Below are positions 48,031-48,390 of a stretch of DNA of 52,345 nt, piece after piece (position 1 is the first letter of the stretch; every line of letters starts with the position of its first letter). The DNA is from a virus (lineage: Duplodnaviria > Caudoviricetes). The notes below the pieces were generated by a model. It had not been told where the DNA came from. It was given only the letters and a program-made list of their open reading frames with translations, and did not search any database. Location: positions 1-52,345 of IMG/VR virus record IMGVR_UViG_3300035070_002843; one strand, 5' to 3'. A program made the position numbers and the translations under genes.

Positions 48031-48390
48031 ACTATTTTGGGTGATAAGGTATAGTTACCTCAGCTATGCTTAAGCGGCAATAGCAAATAACTCGTCGTTT
48101 GCAGTTATTGGATTTTGCTTGATTTACAGTCATCGCCTACTGTGCTGTCCACTCCGTTACTCTTTGCTCTGTCGAAACCTGTACACCCCCATCAAAAGTA
48201 GACTCAAGGGTGACACCTCACCCAAGGATAAATATCAGAGTCCAATTATCACTGACAGCCTTTCTAGGTATGTAACACATGGTCTAGAATCTGTTACACT
48301 GCCTATCTGTCTCTAGTCTACTTTTGGTGGAGGTGGGGGGAATCGAACCCCCGTCCAGAACACCTTTCTCTTTGCTTCTTACAGCAATAA
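48031..48390 (-). ncRNA. ssrA: Circularly permuted (two-piece) tmRNA: acceptor piece ~48390-48325, intervening segment 48324-48191, coding piece 48190-~48031
   Basis: T-arm GGGGG-TTCGATT-CCCCC then CACCTCC-A-CCA lies upstream of the 5' strand GGGGGTG-TACAGGTTTCGAC. The acceptor stem has G3.U70 and A73. Tag frame 48102-48070 encodes ANDELFAIAA*. Outer ends are approximate. Confidence 0.95.

What the first reader, a model, noticed from the sequence alone, without database searches (positions are those of the whole stretch)
48031..48390. Phage-encoded circularly permuted (two-piece) tmRNA with tag ANDELFAIAA
Seen: on the minus strand the 3' half of a tRNA-Ala-like domain (TTCTGGAC-GGGGGTTCGATTCCCCC-CACCTCC-A-CCA, ending at 48325) comes before the 5' half (GGGGGTG-TACAGGTTTCGAC, starting at 48190). 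The halves form a 7-bp acceptor stem with G3.U70 and A73, plus cross-piece helices AGAGCA/TGTTCT and ACAGCA/TGCTGT. A pk1-like hairpin (ACAGT..ACTGT) precedes ATAACT|GCA and the frame GCA AAC GAC GAG TTA TTT GCT ATT GCC GCT TAA. After it come a stop-codon hairpin (GCTAT..ATAGC) and one pseudoknot (AGGTA/TACCT, loop ACTA pairing with downstream TAGT). Known: G3.U70 is the AlaRS identity element, tags ending in AA are ClpXP degrons, and permuted ssrA occurs in alphaproteobacteria and some beta-proteobacteria and cyanobacteria. Inference: the phage supplies its own ribosome-rescue RNA, possibly to offset host tmRNA/tRNA-cleaving defences or nonstop mRNA made during takeover. From memory, the tag resembles beta-proteobacterial tags, which would hint at the host. 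No smpB is in this window.
Basis: partly seen in the sequence, partly recalled or inferred. Interest (0 to 1): 0.9.

Follow-up and report, generated by a model that had tools for sequence, protein, structure and literature searches.

The report
Two-piece tmRNA gene in marine phage
A marine T4-like phage carries a genuine, well-conserved split (two-piece) version of the ribosome-rescue RNA tmRNA just after its gene 32, but phage genes of this sort have already been described, so it is a new example and not a new kind of thing.

Summary
ARAGORN calls a permuted tmRNA with tag ANDELFAIAA. Rfam gives beta_tmRNA 156.2 bits (cut-off 84) and tmRNA_permuted 142.5 bits (cut-off 47).

The window is a fragment (about 30% complete) of a marine T4-like phage. 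The gene lies between the gene 32 stop codon and the gene 32 terminator. It is optional. Two relatives lack it at this site, one of them 96.6-98.6% identical in the flanks. Two others carry it.

Against a relative whose flanking genes are 86-87% identical, the mature pieces show 1 change in 225 nt. The discarded spacer is unalignable, but its closing stem is kept by compensatory changes.

No SmpB gene was found in the window, in a 102-kb relative, or in four complete genomes of phages with this RNA type.

The tag differs by one residue from Rhodocyclales tags. The RNA is at most 71% identical to any sampled bacterial copy and falls outside the bacterial clade.

Phage two-piece tmRNAs are published (PMC9004378) and annotated in GenBank. 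Verdict: real, a new member of a known kind, modest interest.

The parts
48393..49295 (-). Gene 32 (single-stranded-DNA-binding protein, 300 aa). Its TGA stop (48395-48393) lies 3-6 nt before the tmRNA unit, and it is the likely source of read-through transcription.
   Evidence: PHROG phrog_224, E 5.6e-110. tblastn gives 52-59% identity to gp32 of Kyanoviridae phages. A sigma-70-like promoter match lies at 49367-49339(-) upstream of the gene.
48389..48418 (-). Weak promoter-like match (TTGCCA, 18 nt, GATATT) that ends right at the start of the tmRNA unit. It may be a dedicated promoter. Its -10 element is partly formed by the cassette's first bases.
   Evidence: 9 of 12 consensus positions. 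This is a consensus match only, not evidence of function.
48325..48389 (-). Acceptor piece of the two-piece tmRNA.
- distal cross-piece strand TGCTG, 48386-48382
- proximal cross-piece strand TGTTCTG, 48362-48356
- T-arm, 48352-48336
- acceptor 3' strand CACCTCC, 48335-48329 (U70 = 48331)
- A73, 48328
- encoded CCA, 48327-48325

The 5' end is not defined.
   Evidence: 65 of 65 nt are identical in L008 and in L092.
48191..48324 (-). Intervening segment (134 nt), presumed to be removed by processing. It is closed by the stem AAAGTAGACT/AGTCTACTTT and has internal hairpins. The leader CTTTTGAT precedes G1.
   Evidence: Fold: -40.2 kcal/mol, z -2.44. There is no detectable similarity to the 68-nt segment of L008, yet the closing stem is kept through changes on both sides. 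Contigs with other letters in place of this segment occur in one DNA-type (library type guessed by the tool) and one RNA run (joints 48197>48314, 48200>48319, 48206>48318).
48031..48190 (-). Coding piece.
- acceptor 5' strand GGGGGTG, 48190-48184 (G3 = 48188)
- D-loop-like ACAGGTTTCGAC
- proximal cross-piece strand CAGAGCA, 48171-48165
- distal cross-piece strand CAGCA, 48147-48143
- pk1-like hairpin, 48143-48126
- resume context AATAACT
- tag frame, 48102-48070
- stop-codon hairpin GCTAT/ATAGC, 48084-48063
- pseudoknot: AGGT 48060-48057 with ACCT 48050-48047, and CTAT 48054-48051 with ATAG 48035-48032
   Evidence: 159 of 160 nt are identical in L008 and 158 of 160 in L092.
48070..48102 (-). 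Tag reading frame: resume codon GCA (Ala) followed by N D E L F A I A A, then TAA. The predicted appended peptide is (A)ANDELFAIAA.
   Evidence: ARAGORN. In L092 the stop is TGA instead of TAA, which is still a stop.
48004..48030 (-). Intrinsic terminator hairpin AAAGGGTCC-TTCG-GGACCCTTT plus a T-run. The tmRNA-less relatives have it too, so it is the gene 32 terminator that the tmRNA unit now uses. It also closes the convergent + strand gene.
   Evidence: Terminator scan, both strands. 25 of 25 nt are identical in L007, L008, L009 and L092. It aligns to the 3' hairpin of RF01850.
48036..48391 (-). Extent of the optional cassette, that is, the stretch that is absent from the relatives L007 and L009 (about 356 bp, replaced there by about 12-17 nt).
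   Evidence: blastn break points 48392 and 48035/48033, and alignment A1.
46437..48002 (+). Convergent neighbour, a 521-aa ORF in the baseplate/tail gene block. It is not part of the RNA unit and marks its downstream border.
   Evidence: ORF list. Weak PHROG tail/lysin matches. The syntenic gene in phage C48C1 is annotated as a peptidase.

Best explanation
The stretch is a functional ssrA gene of the circularly permuted, beta type. It is carried as an accessory cassette by an uncultured marine T4-like (Kyanoviridae-like) myophage.

Likely mechanism (steps 2-5 are inferred from the family, not shown here):
1. The gene is transcribed with, or just after, gene 32 and ends at the gene 32 terminator.
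2. The precursor folds so that the two halves of the tRNA-Ala-like domain pair across a structured spacer.
3. Host tRNA-processing enzymes cut the spacer out: RNase P at G1 (48190), and 3' trimming to the encoded CCA (48325). This leaves an acceptor piece and a coding piece held together by the acceptor stem and two cross-piece helices.
4. Host AlaRS charges the RNA through G3.U70 and A73, and host SmpB and EF-Tu deliver it to stalled ribosomes.
5. Translation resumes at GCA. The peptide AANDELFAIAA is added, and its C-terminal AA-type end directs the product to host proteases.

The phage brings only the RNA and depends on the host for every protein partner.

The probable benefit is to keep ribosomes free when host ssrA transcription stops and mRNA is being cut during infection. 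That part is inference.
For: Shown here:
- Two gene finders agree.
- All tRNA-like identity features are present.
- The helices are supported by covariation against slid controls, and the minimum-free-energy fold recovers the tRNA-like domain.
- Selection: against L008 the mature pieces have 1 change in 225 nt, while gene 32 is 85.6% identical and the downstream ORF 86.8%. The binomial P is about 3e-11 under equal rates.
- The spacer is unalignable and differs in length (134, 68 and 237 nt), yet its closing stem is kept by compensatory changes. This is what is expected of a discarded segment.
- The stop codon changes from TAA to TGA in L092, so the frame still ends there.
- No SmpB was found in the window, in the 102-kb relative, or in 4 complete genomes of phages with beta-type tmRNA: 0 of 1 and 0 of 5 records, with the control positive in 10 of 14 genomes.
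- The window contains no integrase.
- The same type occurs in isolated phages, in 5 of 5 loci examined.

From established knowledge (recalled):
- G3.U70 is the AlaRS identity element.
- Two-piece tmRNA is active in Caulobacter (Keiler et al. 2000, cited in PMC9004378).
- C-terminal LAA-type tags are ClpXP degrons.
Against: - There is no direct evidence of transcription, processing, charging or tagging. The runs laid are contigs, which cannot show RNA ends, and RNA libraries can hold DNA.
- The RF01850 score (156 bits) is about half that of bacterial members (289-314 bits). The middle of the cross-piece helix region does not pair (marked).
- A second stem for pk1 was not found by eye.
- The gene is dispensable: L007 and L009 lack it. 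Only 1 of 80 gp32-anchored relatives has any tmRNA within about 2.5 kb. 69 of the 80 had at least 450 nt downstream of gene 32.
- Near-identity of the mature pieces could partly reflect recent exchange between phages instead of selection.
- The tag ends in IAA, not LAA. Its recognition in the unknown host is assumed.
Confidence: 0.85

Rival explanations
1. The RNA is made and processed, but it acts mainly as a competitor or decoy. It would titrate host SmpB, AlaRS or a tmRNA/tRNA-directed nuclease, or divert tagging, and so would not restore ribosome rescue.
For: PMC4131195 and PMC11915505 (passages read) report that a phage molecule consisting only of the tRNA-like domain (DS6A type) inhibits tmRNA in E. 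coli. Viral contigs sharing the same 32-nt T-arm/acceptor sequence hold such approximately 80-nt mini forms (L088, L090, L101). The phage encodes no SmpB, so it must share the host's.
Against: The whole coding piece is conserved as strictly as the tRNA-like domain. That includes the resume context, the frame, the stop, the stop-codon hairpin and the pseudoknot (159 of 160 nt against L008). The stop is kept through the TAA to TGA change. A pure decoy would not need these features.
Confidence: 0.07
2. It is a passenger: a piece of bacterial ssrA DNA picked up by the phage and not (or no longer) used.
For: The cassette is absent from near-identical phages and rare among relatives (1 of 80). Its type and tag resemble those of Rhodocyclales.
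Against: - Conservation is far above that of the flanks.
- The spacer stem shows compensatory changes.
- All helices and identity elements are intact.
- The G+C content is 43-45%, close to the phage's 39% and far from the 61-65% of three of the four bacterial loci that score above the RF01850 cut-off. This argues for long residence in phages.
- Identity to any sampled bacterial copy is at most 71%, and the RNA lies outside the bacterial clade.
Confidence: 0.05
3. It is a phage attachment site: an ssrA 3' fragment used for integration into a host tmRNA gene.
For: tmRNA genes are common integration targets, and temperate elements carry their 3' ends (PMC4383910, search listing and abstract only; PMC9004378, passage read).
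Against: Both halves, the tag frame and the pseudoknot are present, not a 3' fragment. The window has no integrase. The context is the replication and baseplate gene block of a T4-like lytic phage.
Confidence: 0.01

Closest known systems
Two-piece (permuted) tmRNA of Rhodocyclales betaproteobacteria, Rfam RF01850 beta_tmRNA. The original paper (Sharkady and Williams 2004) is not held here and is cited from the reference list of PMC9004378.
   Same: - The gene order is the same: acceptor piece, spacer, coding piece.
- It has two cross-piece helices, a pk1-position hairpin, a stop-codon hairpin, one downstream pseudoknot and a 3' terminator hairpin.
- It aligns to the model full length, positions 1-331.
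- The tag differs at one position from ANDE[Q/R/H]FAIAA.
- The leader before G1 is alike.
   Different: - It is carried by a phage.
- It scores 156 bits against 289-314 for three bacterial members.
- Identity over the mature pieces is at most 71%.
- The spacer is 134 nt, against 4-50 nt (median 29) in 87 bacterial genes.
- G+C is 43-45%.
- It lies outside the clade of 71 bacterial rows.
Two-piece tmRNA of the OM43 phage Melnitz and related marine myophages (Buchholz et al. 2022, PMC9004378)
   Same: - It is a T4-like aquatic myophage of the same broad group (gp32 55% identical, family Kyanoviridae).
- It has a permuted ssrA with a long spacer (142 nt).
- The gene sits in the gp33/gp32 replication-transcription block.
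- The paper, too, treats the gene as common in the group but not a defining feature of it.
   Different: - Melnitz's gene is alpha type (RF01849, 106.7 bits) and is followed by a glutamine riboswitch. This one is beta type, and no riboswitch reached gathering score in the window.
- Melnitz's gene lies upstream of gp33, 2.3 kb from gene 32. This one lies directly after gene 32.
- Identity over the mature pieces is about 50%.
Beta-type permuted tmRNA genes of isolated phages: Stenotrophomonas Menderavirus (Marzo, Bhz51 and others), Pseudomonas SM1/PaMx31 group, Xanthomonas JGB6 and Rb1
   Same: ARAGORN calls a permuted gene in 5 of 5 loci. RF04321 scores 103-119 bits in 5 of 5, and RF01850 is above the cut-off in 4 of 5. 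Spacers are long (56-112 nt). The four complete genomes contain no SmpB. Some records already annotate the gene as tmRNA/ssrA.
   Different: - Identity to the window's mature pieces is only 56-63%.
- The tags are longer and different (for example VAANDDSYTVRIAA, ANDTSFDVRLAA).
- In Menderavirus the gene sits inside a tRNA gene cluster, not after gene 32.
- The hosts are gammaproteobacteria from soil or wastewater.
One-piece tmRNA genes of mycobacteriophages (Bxz1 group) and Bacillus phage G, and the tRNA-like-domain-only gene of DS6A (PMC4131195)
   Same: These are phage-borne ssrA genes without a phage smpB. As far as I recall, the biological role of none of them has been shown by experiment.
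   Different: They have the standard gene order or a truncated form, and they belong to phages of Gram-positive hosts.

Membership tests
tmRNA (ssrA), any form | tRNA-Ala-like domain: 7-bp acceptor stem with G3.U70, discriminator A73, 3' CCA, and a T-arm with a GGUUCGAUUCC-type loop | tested here: met
   Read directly from the sequence. In the comparative set, all 7 acceptor pairs are standard in 83 of 83 rows, G.U at pair 3 is present in 83 of 83, and T-stem cells pair in 100%.
tmRNA (ssrA), any form | Short tag frame that starts at a resume codon without an initiator, ends at a stop, and encodes a tag with a hydrophobic ...AA end | tested here: met
   ANDELFAIAA*, with resume context AATAACT|GCA recognised by ARAGORN. 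The stop is kept as TGA in L092.
tmRNA (ssrA), any form | Covariance-model score above the curated threshold | tested here: met
   RF01850 scores 156.2 against a cut-off of 84. RF04321 scores 142.5 against 47.
tmRNA (ssrA), any form | Alanylation, SmpB binding and trans-translation activity | not testable with these tools
   This needs biochemistry or genetics. No SmpB gene was found in the window or in relatives, so a host SmpB would be required.
Permuted (two-piece) tmRNA | The 3' half of the tRNA-like domain is encoded upstream of the 5' half, with a spacer between them | tested here: met
   CCA ends at 48325, G1 is at 48190, and the spacer is 134 nt.
Permuted (two-piece) tmRNA | The precursor is cut into two mature pieces | not testable with these tools
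   Only contigs were available, and they cannot show RNA ends. There is indirect support: the spacer is free to vary while its closing stem covaries.
Beta-type two-piece tmRNA (RF01850) | Cross-piece helices between the 5' part of the acceptor piece and the coding piece downstream of the D-loop-like element | tested here: met
   Standard pairs: proximal halves 97% and 99%, distal helix 95%. Slid controls reach at most 74% and 59% respectively. Several pair types occur per position. The middle 4-bp segment of the model does not pair in the window.
Beta-type two-piece tmRNA (RF01850) | Stop-codon hairpin and a single pseudoknot after the tag | tested here: met
   Stop-codon hairpin 91% and pseudoknot stem 1 96% standard pairs. 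Pseudoknot stem 2 is weaker at 73% and depends on the alignment.
Beta-type two-piece tmRNA (RF01850) | Belongs to the betaproteobacterial (Rhodocyclales) lineage for which the family was defined | tested here: not met
   It is phage-borne. It lies outside the clade of 71 bacterial rows (supports 100/98). It scores half as high as bacterial members. So it works like, and is homologous to, the beta type, but it is not a member of the bacterial lineage.
Melnitz-type phage ssrA | Alpha-type RNA followed by a glutamine riboswitch, placed upstream of gp33 | tested here: not met
   The window's RNA is beta type and lies after gene 32, and no riboswitch hit reached gathering score. Melnitz has RF01849 plus RF01739 at a different site.

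The most novel reading that the evidence does not exclude
Beta-type two-piece tmRNAs are not repeated host captures. They form an old lineage that is propagated by phages and passed between unrelated phages, including marine T4-like phages, Menderavirus, the SM1 group and Xanthomonas phages. Many of the hosts have one-piece tmRNA. The gene moves as a small recombining cassette whose spacer turns over quickly.

In the boldest form, the permuted gene of Rhodocyclales itself came from this phage pool. In the trees, all 13 beta-type phage rows except one misplaced long branch lie outside and basal to a tight bacterial clade. The window's clade is the sister of that bacterial clade.
Probability: 0.12. 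Interest if true: 0.65.

Novelty: new member of a known kind. Interest (0 to 1): 0.3.

Why it matters
It adds a clean, comparatively supported example of a phage carrying its own ribosome-rescue RNA while relying on the host for SmpB and every other partner.

Two points may be useful beyond cataloguing:

- Natural alleles of one phage population exist with and without the 356-bp cassette at the same site. They are a ready-made comparison for asking what a phage tmRNA is worth. As far as I know, no experiment has answered that for any phage.
- tmRNA type is a poor host marker. Beta-type genes sit in phages of gammaproteobacteria and in marine phages. An alpha-type gene sits in a phage of the betaproteobacterium-like OM43.

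It is also a practical annotation point. Many GenBank records of phages with this RNA leave it unannotated or place a hypothetical protein over it.

Tried and rejected
**RNA evidence.** I laid three RNA-library runs and one DNA-type run (library type guessed by the tool) on 47400-49400.
- All are contigs, so they cannot show RNA ends or expression level.
- Contigs from RNA libraries do cover the whole unit, but DNA can be present in such libraries.
- Contig breaks and loose ends at 48321-48325 and 48356-48366 occur in the DNA-type run too. They sit in the T-arm/acceptor sequence shared by many organisms, and the depth peaks of 469-671 in the DNA-type run X3 show the same thing. I therefore rejected these breaks as processing sites.
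- Joints that skip 48197-48319 also occur in the DNA-type run. They are spacer variants, not splicing.

**Host inference.**
- The tag pattern scan and a BLAST of the gene against 401 genomes sampled from the order of a Rhodocyclales genome found no close bacterial copy.
- The best match was 79% over 115 nt, in G068, a 2.0-Mb genome whose locus has 40% G+C. Over the mature pieces it is only 61-63% identical.
- No host can be named.

**Promoters.** The T4 late-promoter motif TATAAATA (recalled) has no copy near the gene. The window has 7 matches, the same as expected by chance.

**Trees.**
- The first tree used bacterial rows chosen by their tag. I repeated it with the tag columns removed and with two bacterial rows carrying other tags added.
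- L004 then jumps into the bacterial clade on a branch of length 1.6, which I treat as an artefact.
- The bootstrap had not settled.
- Rows left out of the trees: L089 (doubtful call), L091 (same contig as L008), L137 (mis-called tag), and L144, L146 and L228 (cut at contig ends).

**Errors corrected.**
- Script one search failed on a '.' character that ARAGORN prints at contig ends. It was repeated.
- In one search the anchor for pseudoknot stem 1 hit the wrong place. It was corrected.

**pk1.** I looked by eye for a second pk1 stem and found none convincing.

**Unavailable sources.**
- The original paper on the beta lineage (PMC516066) is not held.
Table S1 of PMC9004378 (the 53 two-piece phage tmRNAs) and Table S2 of PMC11915505 (forms of the 79 phage sequences) may already list beta-type phage genes, or this gene's relatives.

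Full report
**1. Observation**

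- The T-arm, the acceptor 3' strand CACCTCC, A73 and CCA end at 48325.
- A 134-nt segment follows.
- Then come GGGGGTG from 48190, a D-loop-like ACAGGTTTCGAC, a hairpin, the resume context AATAACT|GCA, and the frame for ANDELFAIAA with TAA at 48072-48070.

ARAGORN calls this a permuted tmRNA, the only tRNA or tmRNA call in the window. Rfam at gathering thresholds gives two hits in 52,345 bases, both here: beta_tmRNA RF01850 at 156.2 bits (cut-off 84, E 3e-48, model 1-331) and tmRNA_permuted RF04321 at 142.5 bits (cut-off 47).

**2. Structure tested on relatives**

I collected permuted tmRNA genes from isolated phages, viral contigs and bacterial genomes, giving 83 distinct rows. As a control, the 3' partner was slid by 1-3 columns.
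- The acceptor stem and the T stem pair in 100% of cells. G3.U70 is invariant in 83 of 83 rows, and pair 5 occurs as GC, AT, GT and CG.
- The two cross-piece helices pair in 95-99% of cells with several pair types per position. Slid controls reach at most 74%.
- The stop-codon hairpin pairs in 91% of cells and pseudoknot stem 1 in 96%.
- The pk1-position hairpin (82%) and pseudoknot stem 2 (73%) are weaker, but both are above their slid controls.

The alignment was by sequence only, so broken pairs in distant phage rows may be misalignment. An unconstrained fold of the 387-nt precursor recovers the tRNA-like domain and the spacer stem (z -3.65).

**3. What the window is**

It is an IMG/VR virus record, linear and about 30% complete, with 39% G+C.
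- The neighbouring genes are T4-like: gp32 (phrog_224, E 5.6e-110), a gp33-like late-transcription factor, the gp2 DNA end protector, and baseplate hub and tube proteins.
- The nearest isolates by gp32 are Kyanoviridae at 52-59% identity: phage C48C1, the OM43 phage Melnitz and cyanophages.
- Of 24 sequencing runs listed, 20 hold the stretch or part of it. They come from 13 studies labelled marine, seawater, salt marsh or aquatic, and six are RNA libraries.
- The window contains no integrase and no SmpB.

**4. Position and transcription**

The unit starts 3-6 nt after the gene 32 stop codon (48395-48393). It ends at a strong hairpin with a T-run (48030-48004) that scores as a terminator on both strands.
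- A sigma-70-like site precedes gene 32 (49367-49339).
- A weak site (9 of 12 positions) ends right at the start of the unit (48418-48389).
- No T4 late motif lies nearby.

Read-through from gene 32, possibly helped by the weak site, is the simplest source of the precursor. This is inference.

**5. An optional cassette**

I anchored on gp32 and fetched 80 related viral loci (68-99% protein identity, the best 80 of at least 600).
- ARAGORN found a tmRNA in 1 of the 80, L008. 69 of the 80 had at least 450 nt downstream of gene 32.
- L007 has flanks 96.6-98.6% identical to the window. L009 has gene 32 84% identical. Both go from the gene 32 stop to the same terminator through only about 12-17 nt. 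Window positions 48391-48036 have no counterpart in them.
- L008 and L092 carry the gene at the same site. L092 came from a second scan.
- The terminator is identical (25 of 25) in all four relatives. It is therefore the gene 32 terminator, which the RNA now uses.
- The short linkers of L007 and L009 resemble the first and last few bases of the cassette (ATTA..GCT and ATAG.AAAGGG). This hints that they are deletion products. The resemblance is short, and I hold this loosely.

**6. Selection**

| Region, window against L008 | Identity |
|---|---|
| Gene 32 | 85.6% |
| Downstream ORF | 86.8% |
| Acceptor piece | 65 of 65 |
| Coding piece | 159 of 160 |
| Spacer | no detectable similarity; 68 nt against 134 nt |

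- The single change in the coding piece keeps its pair as G.U.
- Under equal rates, one or fewer changes in 225 nt has P of about 3e-11.
- The spacer's 10-bp closing stem is kept by changes on both sides: AAAGTAGACT/AGTCTACTTT against GAAGCATACT/AGTATGTTTC.
- Spacer-replaced forms also occur in one DNA-type (library type guessed by the tool) and one RNA run.
- In L092 the stop codon is TGA instead of TAA.

This pattern is what a processed two-piece RNA under purifying selection should show. Recent exchange of the mature parts between phages cannot be excluded as a contributor.

**7. Relatives**

- A distant blastn of the region against 50,697 phage records hit 23 records, only over the T-arm/acceptor part: 16 Stenotrophomonas, 5 Pseudomonas and 2 Xanthomonas.
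- I examined five loci. All have an ARAGORN permuted call and an RF04321 hit (103-119 bits), and four reach the RF01850 cut-off (92-111 bits).
- Several records annotate the gene as tmRNA/ssrA. Others leave it blank, call it tRNA-OTHER, or place a hypothetical protein over it.
- An exact 32-nt scan of IMG/VR gave 22 loci. Nine have permuted calls (one doubtful), nine have standard calls and four have none. I gave 12 of the 22 to Rfam: 8 have RF04321 hits and 3 reach the RF01850 cut-off.
- L099 and L095 are also low-G+C T4-like contigs, with beta-type genes 2.4-2.7 kb upstream of gene 32. That is the place where Melnitz has its alpha-type gene plus a glutamine riboswitch.
- No SmpB was found in the 102-kb contig of L008 or in the complete genomes of Marzo, SM1, JGB6 and Rb1 (0 of 5).

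**8. Bacterial side and the host question**

- 87 of the 120 have permuted genes. Almost all are Rhodocyclales by record title (Azonexus, Dechloromonas, Rhodocyclus, Accumulibacter, Azoarcus, Thauera and others). Their tags are ANDEQ/R/H-FAIAA, and none has L at the fifth position.
- Three such genomes score 289-314 bits on RF01850. In an even sample of 151 genomes of their order, 4 pass the cut-off.
- Over the mature pieces the window's RNA is 99-99.6% identical to L008 and L092, at most 71% identical to any bacterial row, and 51-65% identical to the other phage rows.
- In the trees with and without the tag columns, the window's clade (support 99 to 100/99) is sister to the bacterial clade (98 to 100/98). 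The other phage rows are more basal, except L004, which is misplaced on a very long branch.
- The tree limits are: fewer than 230 columns, long phage branches, a phage outgroup, and a bacterial sample biased by the tag. So I conclude only that this is not a recent capture from any sampled bacterium.
- Bacterial spacers are 4-50 nt (median 29). Phage spacers are 56-237 nt, leaving aside L102 and the doubtful L089.
- A BLAST against 401 genomes of the order found nothing closer than 79% over 115 nt.

The tmRNA type of isolated phages does not match their hosts' type. That Pseudomonas, Stenotrophomonas and Xanthomonas have one-piece tmRNA is recalled, not tested here. The phage is marine. For both reasons the tag is a weak host marker.

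**9. Mechanism**

Shown:
- The gene has every sequence and structure feature of a two-piece tmRNA.
- It is conserved.
- The phage lacks smpB.

Inferred from the family:
- The spacer is removed by RNase P at G1 and by 3' trimming to the encoded CCA.
- The RNA is charged by AlaRS.
- It is delivered by host SmpB and EF-Tu.
- It tags proteins with AANDELFAIAA, which host proteases then degrade.

The benefit is speculative. It may be ribosome recycling when host transcription is shut off or mRNAs are cut.

**10. Known or new**

- PMC9004378 (passages read) describes Melnitz's two-piece ssrA. It counts 53 two-piece forms among 133 unique tmRNA genes found in 402 of 18,146 phage genomes, 50 of them from marine or aquatic phages. 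It finds permuted genes in 17 of 47 Melnitz-like contigs.
- PMC11915505 (passages read) lists 79 phage tmRNA sequences and introduces RF04321.
- PMC4131195 (passages read) lists only one-piece phage genes as of 2014.
- My searches found no paper that discusses beta-type genes in phages, the gene 32 site or the presence/absence alleles. The supplements that could list them are closed, so I do not claim these points are unpublished.

Verdict: a real feature, a new member of a known kind, of modest interest.

Noticed in passing
L092:1177-1279 (viral contig; corresponds to an insertion at window 48325/48324): A close relative (gene 32 99.2% identical) carries an extra 103 nt right after the first CCA, bounded by a repeat of CTCCACCA.
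- The insert has its own 10-bp closing stem (AAACACACTG/CAGTGTGTTT).
- It has a T-arm-like GTGGTTCGAATCCAC and folds like a cloverleaf (-37.1 kcal/mol, z -2.1).
- It ends in TTTGATGGTGGTG, which looks like a degenerate copy of the leader plus the acceptor 5' strand.

ARAGORN calls no tRNA there. It may be a scar of recombination between two tmRNA alleles, or a small tRNA-like element.
   Followed up: partly
window 48389 joined back to 48182 (run X4, one 95-nt contig): One contig from an RNA library (depth 8.6) joins the spacer's 3' part plus the first 9 nt of the coding piece, through 7 other letters, to the start of the acceptor piece. It may be another rearranged allele, a tandem arrangement or a cDNA artefact. 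It is unexplained.
   Followed up: no
L101:3630-3711(-), L088:6064-6142(-), L090:107-185(-): Three viral contigs share the window's exact 32-nt T-arm/acceptor sequence. Each holds an approximately 80-nt gene in standard order that is little more than the tRNA-like domain of tmRNA (RF00023, 66-76 bits, with the whole middle of the model skipped). No tag frame is called. They resemble the DS6A-type mini form. L101 also has a Pistol ribozyme hit, and L087 has a manA RNA hit.
   Followed up: partly
L099:3504-3896 and L095:2799-3216(-): Two other low-G+C T4-like viral contigs (gp32 52-58% identical) carry beta-type permuted tmRNAs with tags ANDERFALAA and ANDYDLALAA. The genes lie 2.4-2.7 kb upstream of gene 32, the region where Melnitz has its alpha-type gene. 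So T4-like aquatic phages hold tmRNA genes of two types at two or more sites in the same gene block.
   Followed up: partly
all permuted genes collected: Intervening segments are 4-50 nt (median 29) in 87 bacterial beta-type genes. They are 56-237 nt in the phage and viral genes, leaving aside L102 (19 nt, 66% G+C contig) and a doubtful call in L089.
   Followed up: yes
L005:2998-3162(+) (Xanthomonas phage JGB6) and other GenBank records: There are annotation gaps among the 23 phage records matched.
- Ten Menderavirus records and the Rb1, SM1-group and PaMx31 records have no feature over the tmRNA.
- Two Ps15 records call it tRNA-OTHER.
- JGB6 has a hypothetical protein CDS on the opposite strand over it.
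- ARAGORN also makes spurious second 'standard' tmRNA calls that overlap the acceptor piece in L002, L004 and L006.
   Followed up: partly
L234 = G068:C1:1216028-1219357: An unnamed 2.0-Mb genome of the same order as the Rhodocyclales has a divergent permuted tmRNA (RF01850, 169 bits, tag ANDENFALAA) in a locus of only 40% G+C. It gives the best BLAST match to the window's coding piece among 401 genomes (79% over 115 nt), but it is only 61-63% identical overall.
   Followed up: partly
window 48004-48030: The hairpin terminator between the convergent gene 32/tmRNA unit and the 521-aa ORF is identical (25 of 25) in four relatives whose flanking genes are 77-99% identical. It scores as a terminator on both strands.
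   Followed up: yes
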